Virus record (IMG/VR): IMGVR_UViG_3300029181_000093
Location: 1 to 4,983 of that record
Length of the DNA stretch: 4,983 nucleotides
Reading direction: 5' to 3' (one strand)
Origin: a virus
Lineage: Duplodnaviria > Heunggongvirae > Uroviricota > Caudoviricetes
In this document: piece after piece, positions 1 through 4,893 of the stretch
How the letters are laid out: each line of letters opens with the position of its first letter
Position numbering within the stretch: position 1 is the stretch's first letter
The notes under the pieces: model-generated
Told to the model about the DNA's origin: nothing
Database searches by the model: none
What the model saw: only the letters and a program-made list of their open reading frames with translations
Made by a program: the position numbers and the translations under genes

Positions 1-157
1 CAGCCGGAATATCTGGCGGTGCAATATCGGTACTGTTTGCTGGCAGACCTGTATGAGGCGGAATATATGCGTCACCTTCACCAATAAATTCATTAGTTCC
101 GGCCAGCAGATTATAAATTTTTATGGTCCGTGGTTGTTCACTCATTCTGAATGCCAT
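1..157 (-). CDS. tfa: Tail fibre assembly protein Tfa, N-terminal 52 codons only; the 3' end lies beyond the left window edge
   Basis: Reverse-complement translation from the ATG at 155-157 gives [52 protein letters not shown], matching phage lambda Tfa N-terminus as I recall it. Its ATG overlaps the stf stop in a TAATG arrangement, as in lambda stf-tfa. It is absent from the ORF track because it is cut by the window edge. Confidence 0.9.
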
Positions 158-3100
158 TATGCAAGCCTCACAATATAGTTAAATGCGATGTTTTTGACGG
201 TGTTTTCCGCGTTACCAGCAGCGTTAACGGTGATGGTGTGTCCATGTGAACCAATCGCAACGGAGTGCGTGTGTGCACCAATACCGACAGTATGTGCGTG
301 TGCACCTGCAGATGCTGCTGTGCCGGACAGTGAGTGGCTATGGTTACCATCTGTACTGGTATTAGCTAACGCCCCCGTAGACATACCTACTGAGCCTTGT
401 ACACCCCAGGTATTTTGACCTGAGCTTGTATAACCATATTGATAAGTATCTTTAAAAACACTGGGGTTAAATCGACGGCCATCTCTATGGCTGTGATTAC
501 CAGCTGCATTCGTGCTGCCACTTAAACTATGGGTATGCGCACCAGTGTTATTCGTGGATTTAGTGCCGTAATCAAACGACGATGTGGTTTTCGTCCCCAA
601 ATCCGTACTGGATGCGCTGGCGCTGTGGGTATGCGATTTTATGCCGTCCTGTTCCTGAGACAATACGGCACGACCACTGGCGGGCTTGCCCTTAATCGTC
701 CAGCCACGCATATCAGGGATCACGCCTGACGGATAAGCGGCTGCAAGTTTCGGGTAGGCAGATTTGTCAAAAGTCTGCCCCTGCATCAGGGCATAACCAG
801 ACGGAACGGTATCTGATGGCCACGGGATTGGTGCGCCGACTGGGTAGCTTTCTGGTGGAAGATTTTTCGAGGTATAAACTTCTGCCCAGTCTTCCTCAAA
901 ACCATAACCGTCTCTTGAAGAACGGTAGAACAGACCACCATTTCTGTAATGCGCCTTCATCTGCAGGGTCCGGCAACTTCCGACTCCGGTATAGAAGTTA
1001 ACCAGAATATAGCTGTCGCCAGAGCGGGTGACATTATAAGCGCCTGATTCGGCATTCCAGGGAACGCCACCATCCGCATCGGCATATGTATCCGTTGCCC
1101 TTCTGGCAAAAGCAGCCACATGCGCGGCGGTTAAAGTAATATCTTTGGAACCATCAAACTCAACACCAGAAACCCGTCTTGGCGTTTGCAGCTTTGTTGC
1201 TGTTAATGCATTACCGTTCAGACTTGCGGACAGTTTGGTTCCAATAACCAGTTCGCCGGTTGCGTTATCAATAGCAAACGGTCTTAATGTATTCCAGCCA
1301 CCATAAACATCACCTTGATTGGTAAGCAGCAGGTAAGTTTTAGCGCCATCATTACGCCATAATGCCCCATACTCCCCACCTATCATTCGAATCTGATTAC
1401 CACCACGCGCTACAATTTCGTCTGTGGCAAAAAGTTTTTTGCACGACAAGTTATCGTTAACGATTAACGAATGAGACTCATAAAAACCACGCCCACTCTT
1501 AAAATCAAGGATAACGTCCGCCGCGATACATTCAGTCGCCGGATTTGTTGCCCCAAACTTATAGGTCGTATCATTAACAACGAGATCAGCACCAGGTGCG
1601 GATATTGACAGGCCATCTTCGATAAACGCAAAAACAGGGAAAGCAGCGCCATCAACATAGAACACAGAGCGCAAATCATCGCCCTTATTACTCATCATTA
1701 TTGAGTGGATGGCTCGTTCATTGTTTTGATATTGCCAGAACATTCCATAAGCATAACGCCCCCTGTCAGTCCAGCCACCAGGCATAACAAATCCGTTAAA
1801 CTCGCAGTTATTCATCGGATCGCCTGCGGTTCGCGTTGCCGTGGTGATAATGACCCTTGATGCCAGTTCGCTTACTGAGCCAGCAGAACGCATAACAACA
1901 ACAGGGTAATATTTTCCAGATGTTGCACCTGCAGGAGCGTTAACCCGCACATAACGCATACCACGCTTATCAGCAAAGTCTGTTTTACTGACCGCGTTAA
2001 TGTTGTTCAGGAAGCGTCCCTTATCGGGTATATCCGCACCGTTCTGGTCTTTCTGCAGACGTTTCTCAGCATTGTCATAGGCTGTTTTTACTGCCTTTGG
2101 TGTCGCGGCAAGCGTTTCAGACGTGCTGTTGGTCGCGCTGCTTAGCTGGATTATCCCTTTCTGTGCTGTCGTTGCATCCTGTGCGGTGTATTTCCCGTTA
2201 GCCAGGTCATACGCGGCCTTAACGGCTTTTGGTGTTGCCGCCAGTGACTCGGAAGTGCTGTTAGTCGCACTACTGAGCTGTACTATCCCCTTTTTCGTCG
2301 TGCTCGCATCCTCAAGCGCCACAGCGGATGCAATATCCTCTGCCCGTTTTGCTGCTGTCTCGGCGCGCGTTGCTGCGGATTCTGCCGTACTCTTGCTCTG
2401 TGCTGCCGCCGTCGCACTGCCAGCAGCCTCTGTTGCCTTCGTGGATGCCGTCGTGGCGCTGCCCTTCGCTGCTGACGCTTGTCTGGTCGCCTCATCTTTT
2501 GAAGCAGACGCCGATGAGGCCGATGACGCCGCCGAACTGGCGGACGATGCGGCAGCCGTTTTTGAGGATTCTGCGCTGGTTTCCGACGCTTTCGCGTTCG
2601 TTTCGGATGTCTTTGCTGCGGAAGCTGACCTCGCTGCTGCGCTGGCCTGTTCAGTGGCTTCGCCAGCCTTCGTTGTGGCTGTTGAAGCAGACGATGCGGC
2701 ACTTTCTGCCGACTTTCCGGCAGCGGTGGCACTGGCTGAGGCCTGCCCGGCACTTGTTGATGCGGCACTGGCAGATGATGCAGCCGCTGTTTTTGAGCCT
2801 GCCGCAGCTGAGGCACTCTGTCCCGCTGCCGTTTCAGAAGACCTGGCGTTCGTCTCGGACGTTTTTGCCGCCTTCGCGGAATTTCCTGCCGCCGTTGCCG
2901 AGGAAGCTGCGCTACTGGCGCTCGAGGATGCGTTCGTTTCTGATGATTTTGCCGCCTCTTTTGAAGCCGACGCATCCCGGGCTGAGGTGGCAGCTTCTGA
3001 CGCTTTCGTAGTCGCGGTGGATGCAGAAGTGGCTGCTGATTGTTGTGACGCTGCAGCATTCGTTTCTGACGTTTTCGCGGCACTGGCACTGGTAGCTGCC

Positions 3101-3459
3101 GCGCTTTTTGAGGACTCTGCAGCGGCAGCACTTTTTTCCGCTTCAGTGGCCTTTGTTGATGCCGTTCCTGCGCTGGAAGACGCTGACTGAGCCGACGAAG
3201 CGGCCTGTCCGGCTGACGTGCTGGCTGCGCGTGCTGAGCCTGCAGCATCAGTCGCATGGGTTGCCGCCTCACGGGCAGATGTGCCGGCATCGCCGGCTGA
3301 CTTCTTCGCGGCTGCCGTGTTCTGTGCCACCGCGGACGCGTTACGCGCCACCTCTTCCACCATCAGTTCAAAACGGCGCAGAGCCTCCGGACGGGCCTCA
3401 TCCTCCGTCATGGCACCGAGAAAATCATTCAGCGTACCGGGTCGGGAATCTTCATACAC
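157..3459 (-). CDS. stf: Side tail fibre protein Stf, long mosaic variant of 1100 aa, N-terminally truncated relative to lambda Stf
   Basis: A 3303-nt minus-strand ORF. Residues 1-40 ([13 protein letters not shown]...[12 protein letters not shown]) align with lambda Stf from about residue 79. It is followed by an Ala/Ser/Thr-rich shaft with recurring KTSETNA motifs, two tandem copies of the phage fibre repeat KGI(V/I)[11 protein letters not shown](S/T)LAATPKAVK, and a C-terminal region with [13 protein letters not shown]...[16 protein letters not shown] and clustered HxH motifs, ending [11 protein letters not shown] like lambda Stf and T4 gp37. The first codon is GTG; start choice is uncertain because the next in-frame ATG is at codon 17. 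Confidence 0.88.
2068..2292 (-). repeat. Tandem duplication (2 copies of about 132 bp, 44 aa) of the phage tail-fibre repeat motif inside stf
   Basis: Stf residues 390-433 and 434-464 are near-identical ([29 protein letters not shown] versus [29 protein letters not shown]). The corresponding DNA shows a clear direct repeat. This is coding, not CRISPR. Confidence 0.8.
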
Positions 3460-3652
3460 GGTGATGGTCCCGGCATGTGACGGCGGGAACGGGCGCTGAA
3501 TAATGCTCTTTCCGCTCTGCCATCACTTCAGCATCCGGACGTTCGCCAATTTTCGCCTCCCACGTCTCACCGAGCGTGGTGTTTACGAAGGTTTTACGTT
3601 TTCCCGTACTCGCACCGAAAATGTCAGCCAGCTGCTTTTTGTTGACTTCCAT
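3452..3652 (-). pseudogene. nu1: Chimeric terminase remnant: small terminase Nu1 codons 1-15 fused in frame to about 41 codons from the interior of large terminase gene A, terminating out of frame inside stf-homologous sequence
   Basis: The translation begins MEVNKKQLADIFGAS, the lambda Nu1 N-terminus, with lambda-like upstream sequence and RBS. From codon 16 it reads [41 protein letters not shown], which I recognise as an internal segment of lambda gpA. The last 9 codons ([10 protein letters not shown]) are stf DNA read in the wrong frame. Breakpoints are at about 3605-3608 (Nu1/A) and about 3484-3490 (A/stf). Confidence 0.75.
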
Positions 3653-4040: not shown

Positions 4041-4274
4041 ATGTCAACGAAGAACAGAACCCGCAGAACAACAATCCGCAACATCCGCTTTCCTAACCAA
4101 ATGATTGAACAAATTAACATCGCTCTTGATCAAAAAGGGTCCGGGAATTTCTCAGCCTGGGTCATTGAAGCCTGCCGCCGGAGACTGTGCTCAGAAAAAA
4201 GAGTTTCTCCTGAAGCAAACAAAGAAAAGAGTGACATTACTGAATTGCTCAGAAAACAGATCAGACCAGATTGA
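4041..4274 (+). CDS. Small basic ribbon-helix-helix (Arc/CopG-like) putative DNA-binding protein, 77 aa
   Basis: The ORF starts about 200 bp from cosN and is transcribed away from cos. The N-terminal 50 aa (MSTKNRTRRTTIRNIRFPNQMIEQINIALDQKGSGNFSAWVIEACRRRL) follow a beta-strand, helix, G-S turn, helix pattern typical of RHH folds, and match the lambda right-end ORF as I recall it. The C-terminal tail (CSEKRVSPEANKEKSDITELLRKQIRPD) differs from the lambda counterpart. No strong Shine-Dalgarno is seen. Confidence 0.65.
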   Translation: MSTKNRTRRTTIRNIRFPNQMIEQINIALDQKGSGNFSAWVIEACRRRLCSEKRVSPEANKEKSDITELLRKQIRPD

Positions 4275-4330
4275 AGCAATTTAGATAATCGTGCAGACTA
4301 CGCCCCTCATATCACATGGAAGGTACCACA

Positions 4331-4741
4331 ATGGCTCAGGTTGCCATTTTTAAACAAATATTCGATAAAGTGCGAAATAATTTAAACTATCACTGGTTTT
4401 ATTCTGAACTAAAACGTCACAATGTCTCACATTACATTTACTATTTAGCTACAGAGAATATTCATCTTGTTCTTGAAAACGATAATACGGTTTTAATAAA
4501 AGGACAGGGTAAGGTTGTAAATGTAAGATTTTCAAAAAATAAATGCCTTATAGAAGCCACCTTAAAAGGATTCAAATCAGGAGAGTTATCATTTTACGAA
4601 TACAGGAAAAATCTTGCTACAGCAGGGGTTTTCAGATGGATTACAAATATCCACGAAAACAAAAGGTATTACTATACCTTTGATAATTCATTACTCTTTA
4701 CTGAGAACATTCAGAACACTACACAAATATTTCCGCACTAA
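4331..4741 (+). CDS. ybcV: DUF1398-family protein resembling YbcV of E. coli cryptic prophage DLP12, 136 aa
   Basis: The ATG at 4331 is preceded by GGAAGG (4318..4323) at 7-nt spacing. The ORF-track start at 4316 has no RBS. The product ([18 protein letters not shown]...[31 protein letters not shown]) matches my recollection of YbcV (136 aa). The gene is strongly AT-rich compared with the neighbouring stf. Confidence 0.75.
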
Positions 4742-4893
4742 ATCATAACGTCCGGTTTCTTCCGTGCCAGAACCGGACTCGCTGGCATGATGAAATATGT
4801 GTACCCGGTAACCCCGGTGTGCATCGTTTTTGATTATTCCCGCACACTCGCGCAGAAGGAGTTCCCCGTCGGGCTACGGTCTCTGTTAATACG

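What the first reader, a model, noticed from the sequence alone, without database searches (positions are those of the whole stretch)
862..2052. About 400-aa central Stf domain of unknown function that is not part of the lambda Stf architecture
Between the tandem fibre repeats (ending about residue 465) and the conserved gp37-like C-terminal block (from about residue 870) lies a non-repetitive globular region ([33 protein letters not shown] ... [16 protein letters not shown]). By my recollection lambda Stf has a shorter, unrelated segment here. Such insertions in tail fibres are often receptor-binding or glycan-degrading modules. Its composition is ordinary and it contains several Cys residues, with no recognisable catalytic motif visible by eye.
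Basis: partly seen in the sequence, partly recalled or inferred. Interest (0 to 1): 0.45.

Follow-up and report, generated by a model that had tools for sequence, protein, structure and literature searches.

The report
StfR-type mosaic shaft of side tail fibre
The 400-residue stretch is the already-known middle part of the Escherichia coli Rac-type (StfR) side tail fibre: three separate, shuffled fibre-shaft modules, not one new domain, sitting here in a truncated gene of the Qin cryptic prophage.

Summary
Residues 470-866 of a 1100-aa minus-strand Stf ORF (window 862-2052) are non-repetitive, of ordinary composition, hold all 4 Cys of the protein, and have no counterpart in lambda Stf.

It is neither new nor a single domain. 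Residues 489-866 are 100% identical in protein to E. coli K-12 Rac StfR. The DNA occurs at >=80% coverage in 1307 of 5426 complete E. coli genomes, against 584 for the lambda-type middle segment, and the protein is 100% identical in phage mEp332.

The region splits into three independently shuffled modules:
- **A (489-666):** a conserved all-beta domain, always internal in long tail fibres of several phage groups. It has no Pfam model and no solved structural relative.
- **B (667-750):** the T4 gp34 triple-beta-helix/P4 type (Pfam Gp34_trimer), also in Mu S.
- **C (780-866):** follows a conserved linker and is homologous to the Mu(-) fibre S' and to P2-like and T5-like fibres. It always lies just before the distal tip.

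I found no beta-helix, depolymerase, lectin or intramolecular-chaperone signature.

The most likely role is trimeric shaft and knob modules carrying the gp37-like tip that Tfa helps to fold. An accessory binding role for A is not excluded.

The gene here is 5'-truncated, so it is probably inert in place.

The parts
157..3459 (-). stf ORF, 1100 aa, GTG start. It is a 5'-truncated StfR/StfQ-type side tail fibre gene that begins at the equivalent of StfR residue 77.
   Evidence: ORF list. It is 89.9% identical to K-12 StfR residues 77-1120. Pfam phage_tail_N matches only model positions 77-134 of 134. The equivalent gene in strain G4/9 Qin is annotated as a pseudogene missing its N-terminus.
2050..2307 (-). 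Two Phage_fiber_2 repeats (residues 385-470), forming the proximal border of the finding.
   Evidence: Pfam PF03406, 128 bits, 2 stretches, the best at 430-470. K-12 StfR has only one copy.
1999..2052 (-). Junction motif [18 protein letters not shown] (residues 470-487).
   Evidence: The same motif is aligned in Mu fibre chains 5yvq and 8ju3 at residues 153-172, and a second copy in 8ju3 at 186-205. It is conserved in P0066, P0099 and P0109, upstream of module A variants of differing identity.
1462..1995 (-). Module A (residues 489-666): a self-contained all-beta domain with no Pfam family and no solved homologue.
1210..1461 (-). Module B (residues 667-750): the gp34-type triple-beta-helix turn plus P4-like triangular five-stranded domain.
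   Evidence: Pfam Gp34_trimer, 95.7 bits. Its envelope is 631-730, so it overlaps the end of module A. PDB matches are T4 gp34 1036-1107 (E 4e-12 to 1.5e-11) and Mu S 268-336 (E 9.7e-13). The AF2 monomer shows five strands at moderate confidence. Domain definitions come from PMC5537660.
1123..1209 (-). Linker motif (residues 751-779): [28 protein letters not shown], a conserved tail-fibre repeat that acts as a recombination joint.
   Evidence: It recurs one to eight times in other fibres. Many E. coli genomes share the region only from this point onward; partial hits start at query nucleotides 829-967.
862..1122 (-). Module C (residues 780-866): a pre-tip beta domain of the Mu S' / P2 H type.
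   Evidence: Matches PDB 8ju3 residues 321-405 at E=5.9e-23. Also matches the P2-like H protein at 632-767 of 919, the Kamaji T5-like long tail fibre at 839-942 of 1197, and SUSP2 at 461-760, co-linear with the collar and tip. AF2 pLDDT is about 79-84 in this part.
160..861 (-). Collar plus gp37-like His-rich distal tip (residues 867-1100). This is outside the finding and is the probable receptor-binding end.
   Evidence: Pfam Collar at 875-922 and Phage_fiber repeats. It is 71% identical to lambda orf-314. The lambda tip's resemblance to T4 gp37 is reported in PMC7291167.
1..156 (-). Start of tfa, the tail fibre assembly gene. Its ATG overlaps the stf stop, and it runs off the window.
   Evidence: Sequence read. 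tfaQ/tfaR sit in the same position in G4/9 and K-12.
3452..3652 (-). 66-aa fusion ORF combining the N-terminus of Nu1 with a fragment of the gpA nuclease domain. It marks the deletion that removed the head and tail genes and the 5' end of stf.
   Evidence: Pfam GpA_nuclease at E=1.5e-7 and Phage_Nu1 residues 1-16.

Best explanation
The region is the central shaft of a Rac-type (StfR) side tail fibre. It is a mosaic of three independently exchangeable trimer-forming modules joined by conserved fibre motifs.

- **Module A** is a roughly 175-residue beta domain. Three copies would form a knob on the fibre.
- **Module B** is a T4 gp34-type triple-beta-helix turn with a P4-like triangular domain.
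- **Module C**, after a 'TATKLQTAR..GV.FDGS' linker, is the pre-tip domain also found in the Mu(-), P2-like and T5-like fibres.

Together they add about 400 residues per chain between the N-terminal attachment and Ala/Ser-rich part and the collar plus gp37-like tip, which Tfa helps to fold. Their job is mainly architectural: length, trimer register, and knobs or hinges. Host specificity would reside in the distal tip. The conserved junction motifs let such cassettes be swapped between lambdoid, P2-, Mu-, T4-, T5- and rV5-like phages.

In this window the gene lacks its first ~76 codons and sits in the Qin cryptic prophage. Here it is most likely an unexpressed relic that can still donate modules by recombination.

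Shown: the identity, the modular anatomy, the internal position of each module, and the homologies. Inferred: the architectural role.
For: **Identity**
- Residues 489-866 are 100% identical to K-12 StfR, and the DNA is 99.1% identical.
- The 397-aa protein is 100% identical by tblastn in phage mEp332.
- The locus is Qin.

**Modularity**
- P0099 has A and C without B. P0095 has B and C (with the end of A) followed by a Peptidase_S74 tip. P0109 has a P2-H N-terminus followed by A and B. P0063 diverges after B.
- 81 of the ~130 representative clusters carry A with otherwise unrelated flanks.
- An alternative module C' occupies the C position in P0057.

**Internal position**
- A leaves roughly 40 to 1280 residues C-terminal to it in sequences that are not obvious fragments. 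It lies at 561-721 of 1071, 420-589 of 1152 and 598-704 of 1266 in T5-like, T4-like and rV5-like fibres.
- C lies 80-260 residues before the C-terminus.

**Known shaft homologies**
- B matches gp34 1036-1107, which is triple beta-helix plus the P4 knob.
- The Phage_fiber_2 repeats match in sequence the repeat consensus of the gp34/gp12 helix-containing repeat domains; this correspondence is my reading, not a tested alignment.

**Conservation pattern in A**
- The most conserved parts are loops shared by phages of E. coli, Aeromonas, Vibrio and Salmonella. This fits a host-independent structural role better than receptor recognition.

**Engineering precedent**
- Lambda Stf tolerates fusion of foreign distal parts at residue 393, by the Phage_fiber_2 repeat, and at 528 (PMC11338833).

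**Recombination reservoir**
- Lambda recombines with the Rac and Qin stf/tfa regions (PMC3945230).
Against: - No experiment or solved structure exists for module A, so its role is inferred from position and conservation only.
- The A alleles in E. coli differ strongly (58-67% identity) between otherwise near-identical flanks. That pattern is also expected for a host-interaction surface.
- The AF2 models are monomers. The B-link-C model is only moderately confident (pLDDT 68.9, pTM 0.38), so trimer geometry is not shown.
- afdb50 was not available, so non-viral proteins with the module A fold were not searched structurally.
Confidence: 0.65

Rival explanations
1. Module A, and possibly C, is an accessory glycan- or LPS-binding knob. 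It would give the fibre a second, low-affinity contact with the cell surface in addition to the distal tip.
For: - A is a self-contained beta-sandwich-like domain, a shape common among lectins and CBMs.
- A alleles diverge to 58-67% identity within otherwise near-identical Stf genes.
- In Mu(-), the C-type domain lies in the variable, host-range-determining half of S' (the position of the G-segment boundary is from my memory).
Against: - The most conserved residues are loops shared across phages of unrelated hosts.
- The domain is always internal.
Confidence: 0.2
2. The modules act chiefly as folding or trimerisation nuclei, that is, intramolecular registration points that let the long fibre trimerise correctly. 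They would not have a role in the mature fibre's mechanics.
For: - Pfam names the B-type domain a 'trimerization domain'.
- Granell et al. propose that gp34 folding may start at a large knob domain with many inter-monomer contacts (PMC5537660).
- Module A folds confidently as an autonomous unit.
Against: - That proposal concerned gp34 P5, not the P4 domain that B resembles.
- Stf already has a dedicated chaperone, Tfa, encoded immediately downstream.
- Lambda Stf and the P0099 variant do without B.
Confidence: 0.1
3. The region contains an enzymatic module, such as a depolymerase, esterase or deacetylase, that degrades surface polysaccharide.
Against: - No Pfam, NCBIfam or PHROG enzyme family is matched.
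- There is no parallel beta-helix; the domain has about 175 residues and 14 short strands.
- Foldseek finds nothing significant.
- Matching PHROGs are 'tail fiber protein' or of unknown function.
Confidence: 0.03

Closest known systems
E. coli K-12 Rac prophage side tail fibre StfR (WP_000279097.1, 1120 aa)
   Same: It is co-linear over the whole ORF at 89.9% identity. Modules A, B, the linker and C are 100% identical in protein. tfa lies immediately downstream.
   Different: The window gene lacks StfR residues 1-76 and lies in Qin, not Rac. It has two Phage_fiber_2 repeats instead of one. Its distal tip is only 80% identical.
Bacteriophage lambda Stf (orf-401 + orf-314 of lambda PaPa; 774 aa in Ur-lambda)
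   Same: The N-terminal part, the Ala/Ser-rich part and the first Phage_fiber_2 repeat match at 58%. The collar and gp37-like tip match at 71%. Tfa lies downstream.
   Different: Lambda has a ~135-residue unrelated middle segment where this protein has ~450 residues. None of modules A, B or C is present (tblastn E=1.1).
T4 proximal long tail fibre gp34, triple beta-helix/P4 region (PDB 4uxe, 5nxf, 9x3r; Pfam PF21446)
   Same: Module B aligns to gp34 1036-1107 (E 4e-12 to 1.5e-11) and exceeds the Pfam cut-off. The predicted five strands fit the five-stranded P4 sheet.
   Different: Only this ~75-residue unit is shared. The gp34 P3 and P5 domains and its C-terminal cap are absent.
Phage Mu tail fibres S (gp49, PDB 5yvq) and S' (gp52, PDB 8ju3)
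   Same: The junction motif K(D)xNGADIP.K..F..N is shared. A B-type domain occurs in S (268-336) and a C-type domain in S' (321-405, E=5.9e-23).
   Different: Mu carries B and C in alternative fibres selected by G inversion, whereas here they sit in tandem in one chain. Mu lacks module A. The Mu tips differ from the gp37-like tip here.
Long tail fibres of T5-like (Kenya-K18, Kamaji), rV5-like (CM1) and T4-like Aeromonas phages
   Same: They carry module A (29-37% identity) or module C at internal positions.
   Different: Everything else differs: different N-termini, repeats and tips, for example the Peptidase_S74 chaperone tips of T5-like fibres.

Membership tests
Rac-type StfR side tail fibre | Full-length co-linearity with StfR, including the central A-B-linker-C block | tested here: met
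   89.9% identity over StfR 77-1120; residues 489-866 are 100% identical.
Rac-type StfR side tail fibre | Complete N-terminal tail-attachment domain (Pfam phage_tail_N, 134 positions) | tested here: not met
   Only model positions 77-134 are present. The ORF starts at StfR residue 77, after a Nu1/gpA fusion remnant. The homologous Qin gene is annotated as a pseudogene missing its N-terminus.
Rac-type StfR side tail fibre | tfa chaperone gene immediately downstream | tested here: met
   The ATG overlaps the stf stop at window 154-156, giving [20 protein letters not shown]....
Lambda Stf architecture | The lambda-type middle segment between the fibre repeat and the collar | tested here: not met
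   No similarity between residues 470-866 and lambda 18500-23500 (E=1.1).
Pfam PF21446 Gp34_trimer (module B) | Score above the curated gathering threshold | tested here: met
   95.7 bits against a cut-off of 27, residues 631-730. Direct PDB matches to gp34 at E 4e-12 to 1.5e-11.
Mu S' / P2 H pre-tip domain (module C) | Significant sequence homology to the solved Mu(-) fibre domain, and a position just proximal to the tip | tested here: met
   8ju3 residues 321-405 at E=5.9e-23. The domain lies 80-260 residues from the C-terminus in Mu S', P2-like, T5-like and SUSP2 fibres, and 234 residues here.
Tailspike depolymerase (right-handed parallel beta-helix) | A beta-helix fold or a glycosidase/lyase family match | tested here: not met
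Intramolecular chaperone (Peptidase_S74 / endosialidase chaperone) | A C-terminal PF13884 domain | tested here: not met
   Absent from this Stf. It is present only in variant P0095, distal to modules B and C.
Lectin / carbohydrate-binding module (module A) | Fold or sequence match to a known CBM or lectin family, and sugar binding | tested here: inconclusive
Invertase (Gin/Cin/Pin) switched fibre segment | An intact 26-bp crossover site inside the fibre gene | tested here: not met
   The core AAACCNNGGTTT is not found beyond chance: 2 hits with 2 mismatches, both outside stf. The consensus was recalled from memory. pinQ is adjacent in the related locus.

The most novel reading that the evidence does not exclude
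Module A (Stf residues 489-666) may be a structurally novel fibre domain with a function of its own. It has no Pfam family, no solved homologue, and only 136 clusters at 50% identity among 1.84 billion proteins. Its invariant loops (DPMNN, GGW(S/T)D, ERAIHS) could form a conserved metal- or sugar-binding site, giving long tail fibres of lambdoid, P2-, T4-, T5- and rV5-like phages a shared secondary adhesion point.
Probability: 0.15. Interest if true: 0.4.

Novelty: already known. Interest (0 to 1): 0.15.

Why it matters
There is little to discover here. The sequence is that of a long-catalogued K-12 prophage protein, and tail-fibre mosaicism has been described since the early 1990s.

Two practical points remain:
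1. Lambda is not the typical Stf architecture in E. coli. The StfR-type centre is about twice as frequent, which matters when lambda Stf is used as the template for annotation or for engineering chimeric fibres.
2. Module A is a well-defined, confidently foldable, widely shuffled fibre domain that still lacks a Pfam model and a solved structure. It is a reasonable target for a domain definition and a trimer structure.

Tried and rejected
- **Single-domain reading:** rejected, because the parts occur separately in other proteins.
- **afdb50 fold search:** the library was not available.
- **Relic invertase crossover site at the N-terminal junction:** there is no intact core in the window. By eye, TTCCTGAACAAC at about 2001-2012 resembles one half-site of the gix sequence as I recall it, but the other half does not match. 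I do not claim it.
- **Hidden features on either strand:** no Rfam family. Promoter-like sites are at chance. There are four weak terminator-like hairpins inside the coding sequence, against 1.3±1.3 expected, which I do not consider meaningful. The plus-strand ORFs of 51-71 aa in the region are short and unsupported.
- **Mu(-) fibre paper (PubMed 38382161):** not held in the library.

Full report
**What is in the window.**
The window holds a 1100-codon ORF on the minus strand, at 157..3459 with a GTG start. Pfam places five features on it:
- the C-terminal part only of the prophage tail fibre N-terminal domain (model positions 77-134 of 134) at residues 1-58;
- two Phage_fiber_2 repeats ending at residue 470;
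- Gp34_trimer at 631-730;
- a Collar domain at 875-922;
- weak His-rich Phage_fiber repeats.

A tfa gene starts at window 156, overlapping the stf stop. Upstream lie a 66-aa fusion of the first 16 residues of Nu1 with a gpA-nuclease fragment, then ynfO (DUF3950) and ydfO (DUF1398). In E. coli G4/9 the same arrangement is the Qin cryptic prophage: ydfJ-ynfT-ydfK-pinQ-tfaQ-stf-nohA-ynfO-ydfO-gnsB. There the stf is annotated as a pseudogene missing its N-terminus.

**Checking the observation.**
- There are no tandem repeats in it.
- A+S+T is 24%, against 74% in residues 61-384.
- All four cysteines of the protein (552, 644, 673, 829) lie in it.
- Against lambda (NC_001416 18500-23500), the Stf matches at residues 1-423 (58%) and 872-1100 (71%). 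The central 397 residues give only a chance hit, E=1.1.

So the observation, and the recollection that lambda has something shorter and unrelated there, are both confirmed.

**It is the StfR centre, and it is common.**
The whole ORF aligns to K-12 Rac StfR residues 77-1120 at 89.9% identity. Segment by segment, residues 489-866 are 100% identical in protein to StfR. The differences lie in the number of Phage_fiber_2 repeats (two here, one in StfR) and in the tip, which is 80% identical.

The central DNA is present at >=80% coverage in 1307 of 5426 complete E. coli genomes, and at >=99% identity in 1041 records. By tblastn the protein is 100% identical in phage mEp332. The lambda-specific middle segment reaches >=80% coverage in only 584 genomes, mostly at 60-90% identity.

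**It is three modules, not one domain.**
PDB sequence search splits the region:
- Central residues 205-277 match T4 gp34 (4uxe, 5nxf, 9x3r; E 4e-12 to 1.5e-11) and Mu S (5yvq 268-336).
- Central residues 311-395 match the Mu(-) fibre chain 8ju3 at residues 321-405, E=5.9e-23.
- The first 20 residues, [18 protein letters not shown], match a motif present in both Mu fibres.

Natural variants carry the parts separately:
- P0099 has A and C, with linker repeats in place of B.
- P0095 has B and C (with the end of A) followed by a different tip carrying a Peptidase_S74 chaperone.
- P0109 joins a P2-H-type N-terminus to A and B.
- P0063 diverges after B.
- P0057 carries an alternative module at the C position.

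Partial DNA matches in E. coli genomes start in the linker and the beginning of module C, at query nucleotides 829-967.

**Module A (residues 489-666).**
A full HMMER scan of 1.84 billion representative proteins finds only 136 clusters. In these the domain sits inside proteins of about 400-2700 residues, with roughly 40 to 1280 residues following it. The flanks are usually unrelated: 81 clusters share A only.

Among phage records it occurs in 260 genomes. These include lambdoid, P2-like and P1-like phages, T5-like phages, T4-like Aeromonas phages, rV5-like phages, ~60-kb siphoviruses such as Seurat and slur01, and Vibrio, Stenotrophomonas and Campylobacter-labelled phages. It lies at 561-721 of 1071, 420-589 of 1152 and 598-704 of 1266 in three examples.

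None of 36 diverse members hits any Pfam family. A profile of them finds no solved relative, only chance Ig VH hits.

With that alignment AlphaFold2 gives a confident monomer: pLDDT 88.4, pTM 0.83, about 14 beta strands. Structural searches gave:
- Foldseek against the PDB: best E 0.03, TM<=0.31.
- BFVD: only other phage tail fibres.

The best-conserved stretches are loops (NAPxGxxxGK, DPMNNC, GGW(S/T)D, NERA, AFP) shared across phages of unrelated hosts.

**Module B (667-750).**
The gp34 segment it aligns to, 1036-1107, spans the end of a triple-beta-helix stretch (1014-1047) and what lies before the next one (1105-1128). From the paper's residue ranges that is the P4 domain: a 3.8-nm triangular knob built from three five-stranded antiparallel sheets (PMC5537660). 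The assignment of 1048-1104 to P4 is my inference from those ranges. The AF2 monomer of B-link-C is only moderately confident (pLDDT 68.9). It does show five strands in B and a better-defined six- or seven-strand unit in C, at pLDDT 79-84.

**Module C (780-866).**
Besides Mu S', it occurs in these fibres:
- a P2-like H protein, at 632-767 of 919;
- a T5-like L-shaped fibre, at 839-942 of 1197;
- phage SUSP2, co-linear with the collar and tip, at 461-760 of 782.

It is always 80-260 residues from the C-terminus, so it is a pre-tip domain and not the tip itself.

**Mechanism.**
All three modules are internal, and two belong to structurally known shaft or knob types. The conserved features of the third are host-independent, and no enzyme, lectin or chaperone signature appears.

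The best reading is that the region forms trimeric shaft and knob cassettes. These would lengthen the fibre and keep it in register between the attachment end and the gp37-like, Tfa-dependent tip. Specificity would reside in that tip, as in lambda (PMC7291167).

The conserved junction motifs explain how the cassettes move between phage groups. These motifs are the Phage_fiber_2 repeat, KDxNGADIP and TATKLQTAR..GV.FDGS. Engineered lambda Stf chimeras fused at residue 393, by the Phage_fiber_2 repeat, and at residue 528 are functional (PMC11338833).

I put about 0.65 on this, 0.2 on an accessory binding role for A (its E. coli alleles differ by 33-42% between near-identical flanks), 0.1 on a mainly folding-nucleus role, and 0.03 on an enzyme. 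None of these was tested experimentally.

**In situ.**
The gene here lacks the first ~76 codons and all upstream morphogenesis genes, so it is almost certainly not a working fibre gene. Lambda has been shown to recombine with the Rac and Qin stf/tfa regions (PMC3945230). The realistic biological role of this copy is therefore as a reservoir of modules.

**Verdict.**
The feature is real and correctly delimited, but already known and ordinary. The only loose end of some value is that module A is a recurrent, well-folding fibre domain with no Pfam entry and no solved structure.

Noticed in passing
window 3452-3652 (-) and 3459: stf is 5'-truncated and starts at the equivalent of StfR residue 77. 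It abuts a 66-aa ORF that fuses Nu1 residues 1-16 to a gpA-nuclease fragment. This is the scar of a deletion that removed the head and tail genes. The locus is the Qin cryptic prophage.
   Followed up: yes
window ~2308-3279 (Stf residues 61-384): A 324-residue segment with 74% Ala+Ser+Thr, no aromatic residues, GC 56-64% and a strongly negative AT skew. The long ORFs in other frames and on the other strand (2123-3190 +, 2283-3290 -, 2328-3011 +) are most likely by-products of this composition.
   Followed up: partly
window 2050-2307 (-): There are two Phage_fiber_2 repeats here, against one in K-12 StfR, so repeat copy number varies between alleles.
   Followed up: partly
L002 (phage mEp332) 4493-7899: The mEp332 stf is split into two overlapping ORFs (4493-5179 and 5176-7899). 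This suggests a frameshift like that of lambda PaPa, or a sequencing error. The record annotates both parts as hypothetical proteins.
   Followed up: no
P0057 and related proteins, aligned to window 862-1122: Some Stf alleles carry an unrelated alternative module (…VSRNRVTALSGS…GEGELLIGWSG…RSRRD…) in place of module C, with the same linker before it and the same collar after it.
   Followed up: no
one search hit list (P0021, P0022, P0027, P0028, P0032, P0065, P0089; also P0030, P0084): Several database fragments of this Stf are named 'short-chain fatty acid transporter', an evident misannotation. Others are named 'terminase large subunit' or 'Clp protease proteolytic subunit' and carry those Pfam domains. 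These may be fusion ORFs created by prophage deletions like the one in this window; that reading was not checked.
   Followed up: no
window 1201-1800: GC content falls to 43-45% over modules A and B, against 50-64% in the flanking stf sequence. This is compatible with import from lower-GC phages, but it is confounded by the Ala-rich codons upstream.
   Followed up: no
L009 (phage SUSP2) 1543-3891: In the Ounavirinae phage SUSP2, module C, the collar and the gp37-like tip are co-linear with Stf 774-1075. C plus tip therefore travels as one unit in some lineages, while in P2-like and T5-like fibres the similarity stops at the collar.
   Followed up: partly
window 4041-4274 (+) and 4316-4741 (+): ynfO (DUF3950) and ydfO (DUF1398) homologues lie upstream of the prophage scar, in a markedly AT-rich stretch (GC 30-36% at 4201-4800).
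   Followed up: partly
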